Virus record (IMG/VR): IMGVR_UViG_3300036791_001907
Coordinates: 32,001 to 96,000 of that record
Length of the DNA: 64,000 bases
Strand: one strand, 5' to 3'
Origin: a virus
Below the pieces are notes generated by a model that had not been told where the DNA came from, made no database searches, and saw only the letters and a list, made by a program, of their open reading frames with translations. Positions 29,290 through 53,681 of the stretch are shown one piece after another. The stretch's first letter is position 1, and every line of letters begins with the position of its first letter. The translations under genes and the position numbers were made by a program.

Positions 29290-29689
29290 ACCGACGGCCA
29301 GCGGTATATCTGGCGGTGATGGCAGCGATGGGTATGTTGCGGCGGGCCGAGCTACGTCGTGGTAGGTCCGGCAGCTGCGGTTGGGTTCGTCATGGCGAGC
29401 CGAGCATGGGTATGCTCCGTCATGGCAGCCGAGGCATGGTTTGTTGGACCATGGCGAGATGAGCTTAGCCGAGCTTCGGCGAGGCAGCCGGGGTGTGGTT
29501 CGGCGGGCTGTGCGGCGCCACGCCAGGGTTGGGCAGCTCAGATCAGGTGTGGACAGCTCTGGCCGGCAGCGCCAGGTCATGGCAGCCGAGGATAGACCTG
29601 GCCAGCCACGCGGAGCCGTCGTGAGCCGGGGCAGCATTGGCTGGTCACGTCATGACACGGCCAGTCGAGCACGGCCATGTTATGTCAGC
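29290..29689 (+). ncRNA. Guide-RNA array 1: pseudoknot repeat plus 7 pentamer-coded units (VIPR-like)
   Basis: 33-nt repeat at 29290-29322, then units such as GGCA|GCTGC|GGTTG|GGTTC|GTCAT|GGCGA|GCCGA|GCATG|GGTAT|GCTCC|GTCAT|GGCA. Confidence 0.85.
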
Positions 29690-29706
29690 ATTGAAAGGAG
29701 GTGAAT

Positions 29707-29928
29707 GTGTCAAAGATAGTTCATTTGATCTATCATCGCGTCCCCAACGATCGGATCTCAGACATGAGCGAGGTCGTGGGGGTCGTGACCACGGGCTGGC
29801 AGGATGCCGATGCGATCGTGGATCAGCTCAACGCGCGGGACCCATCCGGATTCGGCTGGCAGCGCGACTACTGGAAAAAGGAGGTTGATGTCATCACCAA
29901 GGATGATGTTCCGCGTCGCACTCCATGA
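29707..29928 (+). CDS. Small hypothetical protein between arrays
   Basis: GTG start after AAGGAGG; the pentamer periodicity stops here. Confidence 0.55.
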   Translation: MSKIVHLIYHRVPNDRISDMSEVVGVVTTGWQDADAIVDQLNARDPSGFGWQRDYWKKEVDVITKDDVPRRTP

Positions 29929-29940
29929 CAGGAGACAGCG

Positions 29941-30207
29941 ATGATCTGTCCGGAATGCGGGCATTCCAACCCGGTGATCGCCGCCGAGTGTCTCAAGTGC
30001 CGGTGCCGGTTCCTGGAACACGGTTGTTTTTCCGAGCAGTATCAGCACCCGCTCGTCGGCAAGCGAATCCAGGTCAATACCAGGACCGGCTGCATGGCCG
30101 AAGGGGTCGTGGAGCGGGTGGTGTCTTCACGTTTCGGCCTGCTCGCCTGCCTGGAAGGCGAAAACGGCAGGGCCTGGGCCGTGAACCAATGCACGCCGGT
30201 CACCTGA
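29941..30207 (+). CDS. Small Zn-ribbon protein between arrays
   Basis: 'CPECG...CLKC'; RBS AGGAG. Confidence 0.6.
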   Translation: MICPECGHSNPVIAAECLKCRCRFLEHGCFSEQYQHPLVGKRIQVNTRTGCMAEGVVERVVSSRFGLLACLEGENGRAWAVNQCTPVT

Positions 30208-30219
30208 CCGGCGTCATGG

Positions 30220-30629
30220 ACCGATGGCCGGCGGTATATCCGGCGGTGGTGGCTAGCCCTGGCGACATCAGCAATGGTCGCGCGAGCACTGCCGTGGCGC
30301 GTTCAGGCAGTACAGGCGGGGTGATGCGGGCAACGGCAGGGCCGGGTCCGTCCGGCGATGTCATGCCACGGTATGGCAGCTCAGGTGAGTTCAGATCGGC
30401 CATGCGCGGGCTGGCTGCGGTGACCAGAGGTGGGTCGAGCCGTGGCGAGGCAGCGTAGCCATGGAAGGGTCGGGTCGGTTGAGCTGCGGCGAGCCCAGCT
30501 GACGCAGGGCTGGCCGCGGCAGCAAAGAACCGATGGCCAGCGGTATATCTGGCGGTGACGGGAAGCATCGGCAGCGACGGAATGGCAGGGCAAGTTGCGT
30601 CTTGTTCCGGCCAGCCAAGTCATGGCTGC
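30220..30629 (+). ncRNA. Guide-RNA arrays 2-3: two pseudoknot repeats, 5 units; the last unit matches the downstream RAMP gene
   Basis: Repeats at 30220-30252 and 30529-30561; GGCA-delimited pentamer tracts. Confidence 0.85.
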
Positions 30630-30754
30630 GTCGTATTGCCGATCACTACGAGGACGATCCGCCTGCGCGGTGGATCGGAACACGTACTGAACACCCTACA
30701 GTTGCAGGGCCGCGGGACGCGCGGCCCGTCTCACTGGCGACAAAGGATGATCCA

Positions 30755-31666
30755 ATGCCAGCCAAGAAAGGTCCGGCCAAGGGGACAGTCCCGGTCAACA
30801 TCCCCCAGCCACAGATCCTCGACTTCGGGATCGGACTCATCGGCGTGACGCCGACGATCTCGAACGCATTCCCGCAGAAGATCCGTGAGAAGCTCGTGGC
30901 TGATCACATGCACATGCCTGAGGCCCTCATCCCCCACGAGGCCAAGGACCCGTGCGCCAACTTCAGCGCGTGCATCCACTACGTCAAGTCCAAGGACGGT
31001 GGGGTCAACTTCGCCATGCCCGGCTCCTCGTTCAAGGGGGCCATGGTCGCGGCGTGCCGGATGACCAACAAGAAGTTGGACATGGCCAGTGCCAAGCAGT
31101 TCTTCCAGGTGATCCCGTTCCGGGTCCAGATGTACGGCGACGAGCCGATCATGTGCGAGCACCGGGTCCGCAACGACAACGGCGGCGTCGACATCCGGCA
31201 CCGGGCCATGTACTGCCGTTGGTCGGTGATCCTGCCGATCCGCTACCACGCGGGGTCGATCTCCAAGGAGTCCCTGATCTACCTGGCGGAGCTGGCCGGC
31301 TTCGGCTGTGGCATCGGTGACTGGCGGATCGCGGCGCCCAAGAGCCCCAACGGGCAGATGGGCGCCTTCCGCGTGGCCCGCGAGGGCGAGATCGTCGGCC
31401 CGGCGTACTCCAAGTGGTGCGCCAAGAACCCGTTCGACTGGGACGAGTTCGAGCAGTACGGCATCGTCCCGCCCGCGCGGGTCGAGTACTACCGCAAGGC
31501 CGCCGAGATGGTTCGCGGCCTGCCGCCCGAGCAGCGGGGCACGCCCAAGAAGGGCAAGAGCCGGAAGGCTGTGCCCACCGCTGCGGCCGCCGCGGCGATC
31601 ATCAACGGCGTCCAGCCCGTCGACGGCCTTGAGCCGCCCGATGACGGCTACGTGCCGCAGCAGTAA
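30755..31666 (+). CDS. vipr: Stand-alone RAMP/Cas7-like RRM protein; putative RNA-guided effector (Vipr-like)
   Basis: 303 aa from ATG 30755 (RBS AAAGGA). First strand 'IGLIGVTP', RAMP helix motif 'MPGSSFKGAM', C-terminal G-rich loop 'AGFGCGIGDWR...GQMGAFRV'. No other cas genes in the window; flanked by the arrays. Confidence 0.8.
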   Translation: MPAKKGPAKGTVPVNIPQPQILDFGIGLIGVTPTISNAFPQKIREKLVADHMHMPEALIPHEAKDPCANFSACIHYVKSKDGGVNFAMPGSSFKGAMVAACRMTNKKLDMASAKQFFQVIPFRVQMYGDEPIMCEHRVRNDNGGVDIRHRAMYCRWSVILPIRYHAGSISKESLIYLAELAGFGCGIGDWRIAAPKSPNGQMGAFRVAREGEIVGPAYSKWCAKNPFDWDEFEQYGIVPPARVEYYRKAAEMVRGLPPEQRGTPKKGKSRKAVPTAAAAAAIINGVQPVDGLEPPDDGYVPQQ

Positions 31667-31741
31667 CCACTTCGTGCAGGAGGACGACCGGGGGCCAGGA
31701 TGGCCCCATCTTTCCCGCAACCCTAGCAGCAAGGATCGAAC

Positions 31742-32275
31742 ATGCCATCGGGTGTCAAGAAGAAGTCATCAGCGCCGGCGCCGGCGCTCAAGTACGAGTT
31801 CCGGGCCTGCTTCCGGAGCCCGCTCGATCCCAACGTCGTCGCGGCGCGGCTCGAATGGCTCAGAACCAGACTGAGCCGGGACCCGGAGGGTCAGGACGTC
31901 CTGGAAGACGCCCGGCCCGTCGGCTCGCCGTTGCATGATCACTTCGACTGGAATGACTACGAGGCCGGCGAGAAGCATCGGCTCGGCCAGGCCACGGATC
32001 TGATCAACGCCATCCGGGTCACCGTTTACGTGGTGGCGAAGCCCAAGGGGCGGGTCAAGCAGCTGCTGCCGGCCTATGTCCGGCTGAAGAACCCCGCCGG
32101 TCGGCGCACCTTCGTCGCAGCGACCATCGCGACGGCAACGCCCCGGCGCGCAGAGACGCTGGCGGAGACCATCATTCGGTATGCACACATGGCGACTCGC
32201 GATCGCGCGCTCGGGCTCACCGAGCTGGATCCGCTGTTCGACGTGATTGATAAGTTGAAGAAGCGGTACGGCTGA
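31742..32275 (+). CDS. Accessory protein of the RAMP locus
   Basis: 177 aa; 'ARPVGSPLHDHFDWND.EAGEKHRL.QATDLINAI' is a phage hypothetical motif I recall next to such RAMP-like genes. Followed within 10 nt by a pseudoknot repeat. Confidence 0.7.
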   Translation: MPSGVKKKSSAPAPALKYEFRACFRSPLDPNVVAARLEWLRTRLSRDPEGQDVLEDARPVGSPLHDHFDWNDYEAGEKHRLGQATDLINAIRVTVYVVAKPKGRVKQLLPAYVRLKNPAGRRTFVAATIATATPRRAETLAETIIRYAHMATRDRALGLTELDPLFDVIDKLKKRYG

Positions 32276-32283
32276 TGCAGCAG

Positions 32284-33923
32284 ACCGACGGTCGGCGGTA
32301 TATCCGGTGGTGACGGGAAGGCGGCAGAGATCCGGCTTCGTTCGCTCCGGCGTGCGACGCTGGGGCCCGGCAGCCAAGGACCGGCGTGGCAAGCCGCGTT
32401 CTGGCTTGCAGCGTCTAGGTTCGGCCGCAGCGGAGGGCCAGGCCGGGGTAGTGTTCGGCTCCGCAGGTCGAGGCTTGTCCCGGTTCGGCAGCTCGGGTGC
32501 GTCGTGCTGCGAATAGGCATCGTGAGGCTGGCTTCGGCAGCGTCAGGCAGCGGCGGAGGGCCTTGTCCGGGTGTGGCATTCGGCGGCTTGGCGTGCCCAG
32601 GTGAGCCGAGGCCGTACAGGTTAGGCGGGATGCGCCCGGCACTGCAATGGCCTGCTCCGGCTGGCCGGGCAGTAAAGAACCGACGGCCAGCGGTATATCT
32701 GGCGGTGACGGCAGTTCAGGAGCGGATGGGACGGCCCAGGCAGGGCTTGTTACGGCCCGCCGGGACTCGTTTCGGCGCCGCCGTATTGGTCTGGCTTCAC
32801 ATGCCGTGGCGACGTGAGCCGCGGTCAGCACAGGAGCGGCAGCGATGGTTCGTCTAGTCTACACAAGGCAGGCCCAGGCAGCCGGAGGTATGCCCAGCAG
32901 GGCCATGGCCGTACAGGACAGCAGGGGTAGGTAAAGCACGGGCAAGCCGTGCCGGGTCCCGGCAGCGAAGCCGAGTTCCGGTGTGGTGCGCCGTGGTGGC
33001 GTCCGTCACGGCGGGCCATGTCGCGGCTAGTCAAGTCGCGGCAGCAAAAAACCTATGGCCACAGGTATATGTGGTGGTGATGGCAGGCAGGGCAAGCCCT
33101 GTCACGTCGCGGTGCGGCATGTCCCGGCAGCGTAGGCTTGGTCAGATACGCGAAGTCCTGGTACGCCGCGGCCGGCACAGGTTAGCTGCGGCCAGGCAGC
33201 ATAGGCTCGTCCCAGCAAAGGCAGGTCGCGACAGGGCTGGCCGCGGTTCGGCAGCATTGGCTGGGAAAGCCCAGCCCAGGTTCGCCGCGCCACGCAGGGC
33301 TTCGGCGGGGCGGGGCAGTCAAGGATCGGCATGGCGTGTCTAGCCACGGTCCGTCATGGCGAGTCGTGCTGCGGCAGCGGCGGAGAGCCGAGCCGTGGTG
33401 GCAACTGGTGGGCCAAGCTACGTTGTGGCGACGCCGGATAGGTATGGCATGCCCCGGACTGCCATGGCGAGTCATGGCGGGCCATGGCGAGCCGTGGCCG
33501 CGAAGGAGTGGCCGCCCGGCGTTCGTCCGGCGTTGGTTGGTCTAGGTAGGGACGCGTCAGCCGGGGCAGTCATGGTTTGGCGCGGCTTGCCTGGTCGTGC
33601 CACGGCAAGCGATGCCAGGGATGGGCAGCAAAAAACCCATGGTCACGGGTATATGTGACGGTGATGGTGCGGCAGCTCGGCCCTGCCATGATGGGGCATG
33701 TCGAGCCGCGGCCAGCAGCGCAATGGTAGCGCTGGTGTTCCCAAGCTTGGCCTGGGTAAGTCAAGCGCTGGCCAGCCGGGGCAGCGAAGGTGAGGCTAGA
33801 TCTATCGAGCCTAGCGCTGTCATGTGCTGGTGAGCCGGGGTGAGCCTCGGTACGGTATCGCCGCTCTGGCGGCGTTAGTCGTGACATCGAAAGCTGTGGT
33901 ATGCCGAGTCGAGGTCAGACAGC
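32284..33923 (+). ncRNA. Guide-RNA arrays 4-7: four pseudoknot repeats, about 24 units
   Basis: Repeats at 32284, 32679, 33051 and 33635; continuous 5-nt periodicity reset by 4-nt GGCA/GGCC/CGCC delimiters. Confidence 0.9.
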
Positions 33924-33936
33924 AGAGGAGGTGTGA

Positions 33937-34152
33937 ATGATCGGACCCAAGTGCGAGTGCCGAAAGCCGACCTTTCCGTCTGAAGACGAACAGTCCTGGC
34001 TGTGCATGAACCCGGAGTGTGCGGGCTTCCAGCAGGTCTACTGCGAGTTGACGCCGGCAGACCTGGCGCTCATCGCCAAGCTGAAGGCGCTGGCCAATGG
34101 CCACTGGCAGCGTGTTGCAAAAACCCGAAAACTCCGCGGTACCAGGAAGTGA
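33937..34152 (+). CDS. Small Zn-finger protein inserted in the array
   Basis: RBS GAGGAGG; 'CEC...CMNPEC'; lacks pentamer periodicity. Confidence 0.6.
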   Translation: MIGPKCECRKPTFPSEDEQSWLCMNPECAGFQQVYCELTPADLALIAKLKALANGHWQRVAKTRKLRGTRK

Positions 34153-34157
34153 TGAAC

Positions 34158-35835
34158 GGTTCGGCAGCCGCGGTGAGGTGCGACCGGGTTCGTCCAGCGA
34201 TGGCGGACCTTGGTGTGGCATCACAGCAGTAAACCTATGGCCACAGGTATAAGTGGCGGTGATGGAATGGCAGCATCGGACGGGCTCGGACGGGCCATGA
34301 CGGGCCGGGTTAGCTGTGCCGCGTCAAGGCAGTACTGGCTAGGTTTTTCAGGGCATGCTCTGGTGCGCCTGGTCACGGCCGTCTAGGTGAGGAGTCGCGT
34401 GCAGCGGCTTGCCACGGCCAGTTCTGTCGAGGCAAGCCGAGGCCGTCAAGGTGCGGCCAGGCAAGTAATGCAGGGATCGGGCTGGCTATGGTCCGGCCGC
34501 AATGGCAAGGTTAGTTGCGGCTGGTACCGGCGGGGCGAGCCCTGCTGTGGTATGGCCGTAACGGTAGTCCGCGGAGCGCCATGGACGGCCCCGCTCAGGC
34601 TGGCCAAGGTCGGCCGAGGCAGTCTTGCAAGGGATCGTCCAGCCTGGTTGTGCCATGGCCAGGCAGGGGAGCAGAGGTGTGTTCTGGCACCCTGTGATCT
34701 GGCCGGCCAAGTCACGGCAAGGCCGGGCAGCAGTAAACCCATGGTCGCGGGTATATGCGACGGTGATGGAAGGGCAGCCGTGGACAGCAGGGTTATGATG
34801 CGCTGCGCAAGGGCTGGTCCTGGCAGGCCAAGGATCGGCAGGAGAGCACAGGTCCGGTCTGCATAGTAGTGGCGAGACCTACCATGTCGAGCCGGGTTTC
34901 GGCAGCAATGCGAAGGTGAGCCTTGCCGGGGCGGCCGTAGCTGTGGCAGTGTAGTCGAGTCGTGGCAAGCCTAGTCCGGCATAGTTGGGCTCTGGTCCGG
35001 TCCGGCAGCAGAAGTGTGTCTTGGTCCGCCGCGTCGCGACGCGGTGGGATCCGGCAGTAATGGTGCGGCTAGTCATGGCGCCGCGAGCCGCGCTGTGTCA
35101 TGTCATGATCTGGCTAGGCCGGACAGCAAAAAACCGATGGCCAGCGGTATATCTGGTGGTGACGGGAAGCATCGGCAGCGACGGCAAGCCGTGGTGTGGT
35201 ATGCCCGGCTCCGCCAAGCTACGGCAGCAGTGGGCAGGCTGGGCAGGTTTTGCTCCGTCGTGTCGAGTGTTGGTAAGGCAGCCATGGTGTGGCCCGGCGC
35301 GTCATGTCGCGTCGTCCTTTGCGCCGGCATGGCGTGGCCGCTGTGGCAAGACACCCTTAGTCATGATGGGGCCGGGCGGGCACCTGTTTGCTGCGCCGAG
35401 TCGTGGCAGTGACGCAGTGGTGTGTTGTGCCCCGGCCTGCCCCGGCGAGTCCTGTCATCGTGGGCAGCGCTGAGGCAGCAAAAAACCCATGGCCACGGGT
35501 ATATGTGGCGGTGATGGACAGCCCCGCGCTGGCCGGCTTTGGTCAGCCATGCAGAGCTGCGGCAGCAGAGGTGAGGCGTGACCAGCACAGCCGGGGTACG
35601 GTTCGCTGTGCCCTGGTTAGGCAGGTGGGTCATGGTTCGCGATGGCGCGTTGAGCCTTGCCATGGTGAGGCAGCAATGGATCGGCGGGCTGTGGCACGGC
35701 AAGCCTGGGTCGGATCCGCTGCGGCAGCGGAGGTGCGGAACGCCATGGACCGGCAGGGTGGGCCAGGGTGGGCCGAGCCACGGCAGCACGGGTGTGCCGT
35801 GTCCGGCCTAGTCAAGGACGGATGAGCCGCGCACT
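34158..35835 (+). ncRNA. Guide-RNA arrays 8-11: four pseudoknot repeats, about 26 units
   Basis: Repeats at 34233, 34737, 35133 and 35485; same pentamer grammar; ends at a strong hairpin. Confidence 0.9.
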
Positions 35836-35840
35836 GTGGA

Positions 35841-35870
35841 AGGGGGCGTGGTCTTCGGGCCACGCCCCCT
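35841..35870. terminator. GC-rich hairpin with cUUCGg tetraloop closing the array
   Basis: AGGGGGCGTGGTC-TTCG-GGCCACGCCCCCT, between the + strand array and a convergent - strand gene; U-tract weak. Confidence 0.7.
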
Positions 35871-35872
35871 CC

Positions 35873-36079: not shown

Positions 36080-37251
36080 GGTGCACCTCCCTGACGATGA
36101 GTCGCGGCCAGGGCCCGCAGATCCTCACGAGTGAACCCCGTCCGGACGCCAGCTTCCTTGACGAAGGGACGAATGGACCGATCCGCGCACAGTGTATCGA
36201 AGATCCGGGCATCGCCCAGTGGCAGCGTCGGAATGATCTCAGCCATCTTGGTCGCATCAACATGGATGCCATCGCTGTCGATGGCGTTGGCCAGCTCATC
36301 ACCCATGTAACTTCGCACGTCACGAATTCGCAACCGGCCCAGGTCATCGCGGTTGTAGACCGAGCCGCTGGTCGTCGAGACGTGCTGGTCGGCCAGCGCC
36401 GAGGCCACCTTCCGTGTGATCCTGAAAAGCAGGTCCTCGGCCCGCGGCACGGCGGCGGAATATTCACGAATGCGCAGCATCCGGTCGAGCTGATCGATGA
36501 CCTCGGCAGTCTTGATCAGCCGGTCAGGCGCGCGGGACTTGGCCGGATCCTTGGTGATCATGTCGGCCATCCTCTCCAGCTCGCCGGCGAGATCAGGATC
36601 CCGGGCGCGCGCGATCTTGGCGCGATCGCGAACCAGCTGCGCCGCCTCGCTTGCCGAGCAACCGCCGAAGCCGGCCATCCGTTCCAATGGTTCGTCCAGG
36701 CTGCCGAGCGCAGCCCCGTACCGGGCGGCCTTCTGGAGGATCGCCCGCGCCATCTTCAAACGGTCCGGGAAGGTGAACTCATCTCGCCATTTGTGGATGT
36801 ATTCGGCGGCGGCCTTGACCTCGAGCGCATTCCGCAGCGGCAGCTGCCGCTCATTCCCCTGGATCCAGGCAAAGTCCGAGTCAGGCAGCTTCGCCAGGTC
36901 ATCATGGGCCATCGCCGCGGCCTTCTCGCGCAGCGCATCGGCCTGGGACTCGATCCCCCAGAAGCGGGCGGCTTCCGTGAGCCGGCCCTCGATCTCCGCA
37001 GCCTCGCGCTGCGGCAGTCCGGCTTTCTTGTCGACGAAGAACGCTGCTGACAGCCATGTCGCAGCTTTTGTATGCATGGGATAGCGGCGGTGCCGCTGGT
37101 CGGCAAACAGATGCGGCAGGGTTGACTCTGGCCCACAGAGCTGTTCGACGCTAGCCTCTTTAACAAAGGCTGGTGCCTCGAAGAGCTGGACCAGTCGGTA
37201 TGTTTCCTGACCGCCAAGGTCGGTCGTCTGATCGAGGATCGGTTGTGGCAC
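36076..37251 (-). CDS. Hypothetical protein (possibly virion/head associated)
   Basis: GTG start at 37251 after GGAGG; helical, with 'VKEA/KTA' motifs; function not recognised. Confidence 0.6.
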   Translation of the reverse strand: MPQPILDQTTDLGGQETYRLVQLFEAPAFVKEASVEQLCGPESTLPHLFADQRHRRYPMHTKAATWLSAAFFVDKKAGLPQREAAEIEGRLTEAARFWGIESQADALREKAAAMAHDDLAKLPDSDFAWIQGNERQLPLRNALEVKAAAEYIHKWRDEFTFPDRLKMARAILQKAARYGAALGSLDEPLERMAGFGGCSASEAAQLVRDRAKIARARDPDLAGELERMADMITKDPAKSRAPDRLIKTAEVIDQLDRMLRIREYSAAVPRAEDLLFRITRKVASALADQHVSTTSGSVYNRDDLGRLRIRDVRSYMGDELANAIDSDGIHVDATKMAEIIPTLPLGDARIFDTLCADRSIRPFVKEAGVRTGFTREDLRALAATHRQGGAP

Positions 37252-53318: not shown

Positions 53319-53535
53319 TCCGATGGCCACCGGAATATGTGGCGGTGACGGCAGCGCAGGAGAGGACAGCCGTGGCAAGCCGAGCCCGCTCGCGGCAGGG
53401 CAGGCCAAGGCGGGCCTTGGCAGCAAAGGCGGGGCGTGGACGGACGCGTTATGCTAGGATGAGCCTCGCGCAGGCAGGACCGCCGAGGATGGTTGAGGCT
53501 TGATCTATCAGGGCACGCCCAGCCAAGTCAGGGCA
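53319..53535 (+). ncRNA. Orphan guide-RNA array 12: pseudoknot repeat plus 3 units
   Basis: TCCGATGGCCACCGGAATATGTGGCGGTGACGG, then GGCA|GCGCA|GGAGA|GGACA|GCCGT|GGCAA|GCCGA... Confidence 0.85.
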
Positions 53536-53681
53536 GGACGCCAGTCGTACTGGTCGGGACCCTACCGCCGGACCCGGCGGTGGGCCTGACACCCGGGGAT
53601 CCTGGGACACCTCTTGCCCCCAGGATCCCAGGTGGGCCGGTCTCTGGAACGAGACGTCGTTCCGGGGGCCGGTCCGTTTTC

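What the first reader, a model, noticed from the sequence alone, without database searches (positions are those of the whole stretch)
29290..35870. Phage RAMP/Cas7-like protein embedded in arrays of about 65 pentamer-coded guide units: a non-CRISPR RNA-guided system
Seen: about 4 kb around the RAMP gene (30755-31666) and its partner (31742-32275) has strict 5-nt periodicity. Each pentamer is a G-biased triplet (mostly GGC/GGT/GCC/GCT/GTC) plus two free bases. Runs of 8-15 pentamers are separated by a 4-nt GGCA (sometimes GGCC/CGCC/GACA) that resets the phase. My hand count is about 62 units here plus 3 at 53.3 kb, grouped behind 33-nt structured repeats and closed by a UUCG hairpin. No cas1/2/3/5/6/10 is present in the window. 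Established: Cas7-type RAMPs polymerise along RNA at a fixed nucleotide step. Inference: one subunit binds each pentamer, holding the triplet and presenting NN for pairing. This fits my recollection of recently reported VIPR systems (RAMP plus GGY/NN RNAs), which I cannot verify here. The multi-guide polycistronic grammar and degenerate scaffold may be undescribed.
Basis: partly seen in the sequence, partly recalled or inferred. Interest (0 to 1): 0.98.

Follow-up and report, generated by a model that had tools for sequence, protein, structure and literature searches.

The report
Phage VIPR system with giant guide array
A 161-kb high-GC soil phage carries a genuine VIPR system, the CRISPR-related RNA-guided DNA silencer first described in 2026 preprints. 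It is unusually large (about 62-66 guide RNAs), and a few guides can be read: one matches the system's own protein gene and one spells a motif of bacterial anti-phage helicases.

Summary
Five non-coding blocks (29.3-29.7, 30.2-30.6, 32.3-33.9, 34.2-35.8 and 53.3-53.5 kb) have strict 5-nt periodicity (z 5.5-12.7 against dinucleotide shuffles). They parse into about 62-66 runs of 8-15 G-N-Y/NN pentamers separated by 4-nt GGCA-type slips.

The 303-aa protein (30755-31666) matches the solved SUSP1 Vipr protein by sequence, keeps its RNA-contacting G-loop residues, and its model resembles Cas7/Csm3. So the locus belongs to the published VIPR family. The GGCA-slip grammar fits the "staggered arrays" named in the first preprint, and I found it in two cultured actinophages.

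It is therefore a new member of a known kind, not a new system. This scan has already noted VIPR arrays on other DNA.

Features specific to this locus:
- Its size.
- Twelve copies of a covarying H-type pseudoknot, each followed by guide units.
- One guide that matches the phage's own vipr codons 34-43 at 9 of 10 dinucleotides.
- Two guides that spell helicase motifs exactly under the published one-base-skip rule. One of them matches DISARM, Dpd and BREX-type defence helicase genes.

Most targets, the host, RNA expression and the pseudoknot's role remain untested.

The parts
29290..29688 (+). Sub-array 1: pseudoknot (core 29290-29314), then 7 guide units
29701..29928 (+). Small ORF (about 75 aa) with a GGAGG ribosome-binding site, embedded between arrays; no family found
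29941..30207 (+). Small ORF (88 aa) with a weak zinc-ribbon match
   Evidence: PF13240, E 0.006, below cut-off
30220..30522 (+). Sub-array 2: pseudoknot (30220-30244), then 4 guide units
30529..30628 (+). Sub-array 3: pseudoknot (30529-30553), then a single guide (30574-30628) whose NN string matches vipr codons 34-43
30755..31666 (+). vipr: 303-aa RAMP protein, homologue of SUSP1 Vipr with a C-terminal extension
30854..30883 (+). Site inside vipr (TISNAFPQKI) matched 9 of 10 NN by guide 30574-30628; the only mismatch is the Ser codon (TCG in the gene, AG in the guide)
31742..32275 (+). vap candidate (177 aa), conserved partner of vipr; fold unknown
32284..33922 (+). Sub-arrays 4-7: pseudoknots at 32284, 32679, 33051 and 33635, with about 24-27 guide units, including the DEAH-box guide (32783-32842) and the SNF2 motif I guide (33377-33431)
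33937..34152 (+). Small ORF (71 aa, Cys-rich, with a GGAGG ribosome-binding site) embedded in the array
34167..35835 (+). One guide unit with no pseudoknot before it, then sub-arrays 8-11 (pseudoknots at 34233, 34737, 35133, 35485) with about 24-25 units
35838..35872 (+). Terminal GC-rich hairpin with a UUCG loop that closes the locus
53319..53536 (+). Remote satellite array: pseudoknot (53319-53343), then 3 guide units, followed by a hairpin

Best explanation
This is a VIPR (Viral Interference Programmable Repeat) system of a large high-GC soil phage or provirus. Shown here: the locus contains a Vipr RAMP gene, a conserved partner gene (vap), and about 62-66 guide units written as G-N-Y/NN pentamers on the + strand. 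Units are laid head to tail as a staggered array. Each typically ends in GGCAG, whose last G is also the first base of the next unit, giving a 4-nt phase slip. Inferred from the published SUSP1 work: the arrays are transcribed and cut or delimited at the GGCA|G junctions. One Vipr protomer binds each pentamer, sequesters G-N-Y and presents NN. The filament then binds double-stranded DNA that reads NN-x-NN-x (one base skipped, usually the codon wobble) and blocks transcription. Shown in silico for three guides: one matches vipr's own early codons at 9 of 10 NN, either as negative feedback or as a weapon against near-identical rival alleles. One spells SNF2 helicase motif I. One spells a DEAH box. 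The 12 H-type pseudoknots are always followed by units and follow the preceding gene in 4 of 5 gene-to-array transitions. They are most likely RNA punctuation for stability, processing or filament nucleation. That role is inferred, not shown.
For: Protein. phmmer finds the PDB chain 36pp_D, 'SUSP1 Vipr protein', E 7e-4. The alignment runs across the G-loop, so SUSP1 R138, C173, D177, W178 and R179 (the RNA contacts given) correspond to R150, C185, D189, W190 and R191 here. These residues are invariant in 10 relatives. The pairwise E-value against the SUSP1 ORF is 3e-9. The AF2 model (pLDDT 67) has Csm3/Cas7/gRAMP chains as nearly all of its listed Foldseek hits, most at probability 0.8-1.0. 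The protein matches phrog_4652 and 1721 representative clusters.

Partner gene. The vap candidate's only relative lies on the same 43-kb contig as a Vipr relative. It also shares a 52-aa core with the gene just after vipr in phage Donkeykong, E 1e-9.

RNA. Period 5 and the pentamer profile are shown. The slips are at GGCA and GGCAG is strongly strand-biased. The pseudoknot has 108 of 108 cells paired, 5 of 9 pairs with compensatory changes and G-U pairs only on the + strand.

Code. The vipr-matching guide scores 18/20 bases under a skip of 1, against 14/20 under skips of 0, 2 or 3, and 1 of 2000 shuffles reaches that score. The SNF2 guide has 5 exact matches in IMG/VR and more than 120 in GTDB genomes; all 125 checked are in frame as AD[ED]VGLGKTVE, with one AEEVGLGNTVE. 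The DEAH guide has 3 of 3 matches in frame as LLIVDEAHHA. NN composition fits codon positions 1-2 (GC 0.58/0.44 against 0.65/0.48; wobble 0.86), and 55 of 62 guides fit that frame best.

Context. Phage genes surround the locus. There is no Cas1, Cas2 or Cas6.
Against: There is no RNA evidence: only the source soil metagenome holds this DNA. Position 2 of the triplet is much more degenerate (G 47%) than the published GGY, although the residues that contact G2 in SUSP1 are conserved. Fifty-nine of 62 guides have no identified target. Two further guides that I read as possible protein motifs, and the vipr-type guide itself, gave no exact hit in IMG/VR. No contig or defence locus examined is hit by more than one guide. 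The pseudoknot does not sit as the published 3' tail does. The VIPR type could not be assigned. The vap fold is unknown (model pLDDT 36.6).
Confidence: 0.92

Rival explanations
1. The locus is a distinct, undescribed RAMP-based RNA-guided system that only resembles VIPR, with a different grammar, stoichiometry or target rule.
For: The scaffold is G-N-Y rather than GGY. The protein is 100 aa longer than SUSP1 Vipr. The vap is unrelated to SUSP1 vap1. Pseudoknots head the arrays rather than tailing each guide.
Against: There is direct sequence homology to Vipr, with the RNA-contact residues conserved. The one-base-skip rule is reproduced by three guides. The preprints already allow seven types, several vap families, staggered arrays and non-GGY repeats.
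Confidence: 0.04
2. The period-5 tracts act as DNA (protein-binding iterons or a structural repeat) or are odd coding sequence, and are not guide RNAs. Public records annotate the equivalent tracts of phage Donkeykong as protein genes.
For: Donkeykong gp47/gp48 CDS annotations overlie its pentamer array. Long ORFs can be drawn through high-GC DNA.
Against: A period of 5 with repeated 4-nt slips is incompatible with a reading frame, and real genes in the window show period 3. Strand asymmetry is strong (GGCAG 73 against 4). Pseudoknot covariation with G-U pairs points to an RNA. Guide NN strings spell foreign protein motifs exactly. The homologous SUSP1 tracts are experimentally shown to be RNAs.
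Confidence: 0.02
3. On target biology: the repertoire is aimed mainly at competing phages, satellites and rival VIPR systems, as published, and the SNF2 and DEAH matches are genes of rival mobile elements rather than host defence genes.
For: Published natural targets are satellites, prophages and other VIPRs. Both helicase guides have exact hits in viral contigs. One guide is tuned to a vipr allele. No DISARM neighbourhood is hit by a second guide.
Against: In Actinomycetota the exact SNF2 matches fall in full-length DrmD or DpdE genes, one of them next to DrmMI. None of the viral contigs is hit by a second guide either.
Confidence: 0.6

Closest known systems
VIPR systems with staggered vrRNA arrays (bioRxiv 10.64898/2026.04.26.720920, main text and fig. 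S18 legend); concrete examples found here in Mycobacterium phage Donkeykong (NC_051648) and Gordonia phage Pipp (MN234179)
   Same: A Vipr homologue (27-30% identity). Runs of about 10-13 pentamers, each ending in GGCAG with a 4-nt GGCA slip, which is a 1-nt overlap of successive guides. A related gene follows vipr. The host range is actinobacterial phages.
   Different: This locus has about 62-66 guides, against 4-6 in those two phages. It has a more degenerate triplet (G-N-Y against almost pure GGC). It has 12 pseudoknot elements that I did not see in the two cultured phages. It also has three small genes inside the array, a remote 3-guide array 17 kb away, and a Vipr that is 100 aa longer.
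Type II VIPR of Escherichia phage SUSP1 (KT454805; PDB 36pp; bioRxiv .720920, .720927 and 10.64898/2026.10.15.759431)
   Same: Homologous Vipr with the same G-loop contacts. Pentamer guides. The one-base-skip rule with the skip at the codon wobble. A compact H-type pseudoknot associated with the guides. vipr-targeting guides exist in that family.
   Different: SUSP1 has four separate vrRNAs, each of GGT-NN repeats directly followed by its own pseudoknot tail. Here one pseudoknot serves 1-10 staggered guides, is followed by guide units in all 12 copies, and has no sequence similarity to the SUSP1 tail. The vap genes are unrelated. In print, vipr-targeting guides are reported on phages that lack vipr, whereas here the carrier has vipr.
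Class 1 CRISPR-Cas effector backbone (Cas7/Csm3/Cmr4)
   Same: The RAMP fold is the best structural match, and the protein family polymerises along a guide RNA at a fixed step.
   Different: There is no cas1, cas2 or cas6 and no repeat-spacer array. The step is 5 nt with a non-contiguous code.

Membership tests
VIPR | Vipr protein: a RAMP homologous to the characterised SUSP1 Vipr | tested here: met
   PDB 36pp_D E 7e-4; pairwise E 3e-9 against the SUSP1 ORF; Foldseek hits almost all Csm3/Cas7/gRAMP
VIPR | G-loop and thumb residues that hold the GGY triplet (SUSP1 R138, C173, D177, W178, R179) | tested here: met
   They align with R150, C185, D189, W190 and R191, which are invariant in 10 relatives; residue roles are
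VIPR | Flanking non-coding tracts of 9-16 tandem pentamers, conserved triplet plus variable NN | tested here: met
   median 12 pentamers; the triplet is G-N-Y, a looser consensus than GGY (non-GGY variants are in print)
VIPR | Adjacent accessory gene (vap) | tested here: inconclusive
   A conserved partner gene is present, but it is unrelated to SUSP1 vap1, has no family with a known function and could not be modelled
VIPR | Target recognition by NN pairing with a one-base skip | tested here: met
   In silico only: the self-match appears only at a skip of 1; 125 of 125 and 3 of 3 exact matches are in frame with the skip at the wobble; NN composition
VIPR | vrRNAs are expressed and co-purify with Vipr; the complex represses transcription | not testable with these tools
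   Needs experiments
VIPR, staggered-array architecture | Successive guides overlap by 1 nt, so the end of one is the start of the next | tested here: met
   There are 41 four-nt slips, 31 of them at GGCA|G; the definition is from the fig. S18 legend
VIPR type II (SUSP1 clade) | Each vrRNA carries its own invariant 3' pseudoknot tail; the vap1 partner | tested here: not met
   There are 12 pseudoknots for about 62-66 guides, placed before the units; vap is unrelated to vap1
VIPR, hammerhead-interspersed arrays | Hammerhead ribozymes between guides | tested here: not met
   No Rfam family at the gathering score, or at E <= 1 apart from one chance miRNA hit
VIPR type I-VII assignment | Position in the published Vipr phylogeny | not testable with these tools
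   The tree and locus tables are not held
CRISPR-Cas | cas1-cas2 adaptation module, Cas6-type processing, repeat-spacer array | tested here: not met
   (controls positive)

The most novel reading that the evidence does not exclude
Part of this oversized repertoire may be RNA-guided counter-defence. On this reading, guides that spell the most conserved motifs of host immune genes let the phage silence host immunity, a target class that the three VIPR preprints I read do not mention. The example here is SNF2 motif I, which is exact in full-length DISARM drmD, Dpd dpdE and BREX brxH-type genes. In addition, the guide just upstream of vipr may feed back on vipr itself, with self and non-self told apart only by a TCG versus AGY serine codon. 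The pseudoknots may be a new punctuation element that allows arrays of more than 60 guides.
Probability: 0.2. Interest if true: 0.8.

Novelty: new member of a known kind. Interest (0 to 1): 0.45.

Why it matters
VIPR is a months-old field built mainly on an E. coli phage with four guides. A locus with 60 or more guides gives specialists a rich natural data set for learning what VIPR is used for. Three features stand out for that purpose: a covarying punctuation element, a guide that matches its own effector gene, and guides that read as universal helicase motifs, including those of DISARM, Dpd and BREX helicases. It also gives concrete, cheap experiments on processing rules, mismatch tolerance, self versus non-self discrimination and possible anti-defence use. 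It is not a new class of system.

Tried and rejected

- The search for related loci found no relative in the viral, metagenome or genome collections.
- Pattern scans for the pseudoknot and for the ISNAFPQK codons returned only chance hits. No comparative alignment of related arrays was therefore possible.
- There is no near-identical phage in INPHARED.

**Guide scans without exact hits**
- The vipr-type guide, the guide read as '..VYTP..' and the guide read as '..GKTA..' had no exact hit in IMG/VR.
- No guide other than the one used to find them hits the SNF2 loci, the viral contigs or four 40-kb actinobacterial DISARM-type neighbourhoods.

**Other negative or unusable results**
- The vap AF2 model was unusable (pLDDT 36.6). 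The atlas gave only unnamed viral clusters.
- No RNA holder is listed for this DNA; only the source soil metagenome holds it.
- A nested alternative to the pseudoknot was tested and rejected: its distinguishing pair fails in 7 of 12 copies.
- Reading the element's GGTATAT as a promoter is not supported by the sigma-70 scan and conflicts with the covariation.
- The host could not be identified (one search gave only distant, mixed hits).
Full report
**1.

The intergenic blocks at 29290-29700, 30200-30700, 32280-33930 and 34150-35830 show base identity of 0.36-0.40 at lag 5. Identity stays high at lags 10, 15 and 20. Coding controls and the two genes inside the locus show lag 3 instead.

Against 300 dinucleotide-preserving shuffles, the five blocks (including 53359-53536) give z = 7.5, 7.1, 12.2, 12.7 and 5.5. 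A scan of the whole 161,481-bp genome finds no other comparable block.

A Viterbi parse with an iteratively refined profile gives pentamers with these frequencies:
- Position 1: G 0.94.
- Position 2: G 0.47, C 0.32, T 0.16.
- Position 3: C 0.57, T 0.28.
- Positions 4-5: nearly free.

I count 62 runs with a median of 12 pentamers.

There are 41 four-nucleotide phase slips: 31 at GGCA, 7 at GGCC and 3 at CGCC. GGCAG occurs 73 times in the arrays (16.3 per kb) against 1.7 per kb elsewhere, and its reverse complement occurs 4 times. Because most runs end in GGCAG, the slip is equally well described as successive units sharing one G.

The closing hairpin with a UUCG loop is real (-32.1 kcal/mol, z -5.4).

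**2. What it is**

VIPR systems are in print. They consist of a small RAMP protein (Vipr), an accessory gene (vap) and vrRNAs of 9-16 pentamers. One protomer holds each GGY and presents NN. The complex binds dsDNA that reads NN-x, with one base skipped.

The 303-aa protein at 30755-31666 matches the PDB chain named 'SUSP1 Vipr protein' (36pp_D, E 7e-4). The aligned stretch covers the G-loop. The SUSP1 residues reported to contact G1, G2 and Y3 (R138, C173, D177, W178, R179) correspond to R150, C185, D189, W190 and R191. These are invariant among ten relatives.

I fetched the SUSP1 genome and located its locus. The pairwise E-value against that ORF is 3e-9.

An AF2 model (pLDDT 67) has Csm3, Cas7, Cmr and gRAMP chains as nearly all of its listed Foldseek matches, most at probability 0.8-1.0. 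E-values are only about 2e-3. The family is large, with 1721 representative clusters, and corresponds to phrog_4652.

The downstream 177-aa gene is a conserved partner:
- Its one relative lies on the same 43-kb contig as a Vipr relative.
- It shares a 52-aa core with the gene after vipr in Mycobacterium phage Donkeykong (E 1e-9).
- It is unrelated to SUSP1 vap1, and its fold remains unknown.

The surroundings are phage genes: baseplate, tail fibres, ribonucleotide reductase and an anti-repressor. There is no Cas1, Cas2 or Cas6, no CRISPR-type array and no Rfam family.

**3. The grammar is already described**

The fig. S18 legend of the first preprint defines staggered arrays in which vrRNAs derive from positions overlapping by 1 nt.

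I found the same grammar in two cultured actinophages that carry distant Vipr homologues. Donkeykong and Gordonia phage Pipp have runs of 10-13 GGC-NN pentamers ending in GGCAG, with 4-nt GGCA slips. In those records the arrays are annotated as protein genes.

Non-GGY scaffolds are also in print. This scan has noted several other staggered VIPR arrays on other DNA.

**4. The structured repeat**

The repeat is an H-type pseudoknot present in 12 copies. In alignment A2, stem 2 (columns 11-14 with 23-26) and stem 1 (columns 18-22 with 31-35) are paired in 108 of 108 cells. Five of nine pairs show compensatory changes. Slid controls pair at 28-48%. G-U pairs are tolerated only on the + strand, so the structure is RNA.

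A nested alternative fails at its distinguishing pair in 7 of 12 copies.

I derived the pairs from the sequences and tested them myself.

Placement differs from SUSP1, where each GGT-NN tract runs straight into its own pseudoknot tail. Here:
- All 12 pseudoknots are followed by units.
- Four sit 0-13 nt after the stop codon of an upstream gene.
- Eight follow a unit through an A-rich linker.
- The three array-to-gene transitions have no pseudoknot.
- One unit (34167-34221) follows a gene without a pseudoknot.

The pattern therefore favours a leader or punctuation role over a per-guide 3' cap, but sequence alone cannot decide.

**5. Does the published code apply here?**

I searched each guide's NN string as NN-x against the phage's own genome with shuffled controls. 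Sixty-one of 62 guides sit at the null level.

The exception is the single guide just upstream of vipr (30574-30628). It matches vipr codons 34-43 (TISNAFPQKI, 30854-30883) at 19 of 22 bases and 9 of 10 dinucleotides. For the ten-dinucleotide core:
- A skip of 1 gives 18/20, against 14/20 for skips of 0, 2 or 3.
- Only 1 of 2000 shuffles reaches 18 anywhere in the genome.
- The match is in frame, with the skip at the wobble position.

The one mismatched dinucleotide is the serine codon: TCG in the gene and AG in the guide, which is the other serine codon family. Thr34 and Ile43 are specific to this phage among its nine known relatives. The guide is therefore tuned to this allele or a near-identical one, not to the family consensus.

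By the preprints' threshold of at least 80% NN match, this counts as a self-target, which the first preprint did not find among its guides. The October 2026 preprint reports guides against the early codons of vipr, found on phages that lack vipr. It also reports that vrRNA-targeting guides score lower against their own locus.

The statistics above are mine.

**6. Two more guides can be read**

All 125 matches checked lie in long ORFs in that frame: 89 as ADEVGLGKTVE, 35 as ADDVGLGKTVE and 1 as AEEVGLGNTVE. Under uniform base composition, the chance expectation for 22 specified bases in that collection is below one match.

Guide 32783-32842, without its first dinucleotide, has three exact IMG/VR matches. 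All are in frame as LLIVDEAHHA in ResIII/DEAD-type helicase ORFs.

The phage itself has neither motif. Pooled NN composition (GC 0.58 and 0.44) resembles codon positions 1 and 2 of this genome (0.65 and 0.48), not the wobble position (0.86). Fifty-five of 62 guides fit that frame best, 36 in sense and 19 in antisense.

**7. What the SNF2 guide might hit**

I scored 55 complete ORFs carrying the exact match against PADLOC at E <= 1e-100. The listed model counts correspond to at most about 16 DISARM DrmD-type proteins, 4 BrxHI/HII-type and 2 DpdE-type.

In Streptomyces and Glycomyces the ORFs match DrmD models over their full length (1200-1345 bits). In two Acidimicrobiia they match DpdE (about 700 bits). 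In Streptomyces sp. Je 1-79 the next gene matches DrmMI at 1255 bits, so that locus looks like a DISARM operon.

The three VIPR preprints I searched do not mention host defence genes as targets of phage-borne VIPR.

The evidence is thin, however:
- The motif is generic to SNF2 proteins and also occurs in viral contigs.
- No second guide hits any of four 40-kb DISARM-type neighbourhoods or any of the viral contigs.

I therefore keep counter-defence as the novel case at about 0.2, not as the main reading.

**8. Verdict**

The system belongs to a published family, so it is a new member of a known kind.

It stands out for the following:
- About 62-66 guides, against four in SUSP1 and 4-6 in the two cultured actinophages checked.
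- The pseudoknot-punctuated organisation.
- The degenerate G-N-Y scaffold despite conserved G2-contact residues.
- A remote three-guide array at 53.3 kb.
- Three small genes inside the array.
- The guide that matches the phage's own vipr.

Still untested are RNA expression and processing, the role of the pseudoknot, the vap function, the host and the targets of 59 guides.

Noticed in passing
L155:3463-3808 (NC_051648.1 about 36889-37234): In Mycobacterium phage Donkeykong, a GGC-NN staggered pentamer array just upstream of the Vipr homologue (gp49) lies under CDS annotations gp47/gp48 ('hypothetical protein'). These are probably mis-annotated vrRNA arrays.
   Followed up: partly
L156:4575-4790 (MN234179.1 about 33099-33314): Gordonia phage Pipp has four staggered GGC-NN units directly after the Vipr homologue gp42. 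They overlap the annotated CDSs gp43/gp44.
   Followed up: partly
window 29701-29928, 29941-30207, 33937-34152: Three small ORFs sit inside the arrays; the first and third have GGAGG ribosome-binding sites. Two are Cys-rich and zinc-ribbon-like. No family was found. They could be further accessory genes of the system.
   Followed up: partly
window 30523-30578 and 35127-35182: Two pseudoknot copies share an almost identical 56-nt stretch, including the 21 nt after the knot (GGGAAGCATCGGCAGCGACGG). This suggests a recent duplication of a leader module.
   Followed up: no
window 30708-30730: A GC-rich hairpin (GGGCCGCG...CGCGGCCC) lies between the self-matching guide and the vipr start codon. It could terminate or attenuate read-through into vipr.
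   Followed up: no
window 33461-33498: Inside one guide unit, a 10-nt motif (GCCATGGCGA) repeats 3.8 times. That guide's NN string is therefore itself periodic and would fit a repetitive target.
   Followed up: no
whole genome G000: IMG/VR classes the 161-kb record as a provirus (CheckV completeness 78%). The protein database lists the same Vipr on a 227,700-bp contig, so host flanks that could name the host may exist outside what I could read.
   Followed up: no
alignment A4 (SNF2 ORFs from L032-L119): The SNF2 proteins whose motif I matches one guide have a motif II consensus of DLxVVDEAHHL. This is close to, but not the same as, the LLIVDEAHHA spelled by another guide, and that second guide does not hit these genes above chance.
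   Followed up: yes
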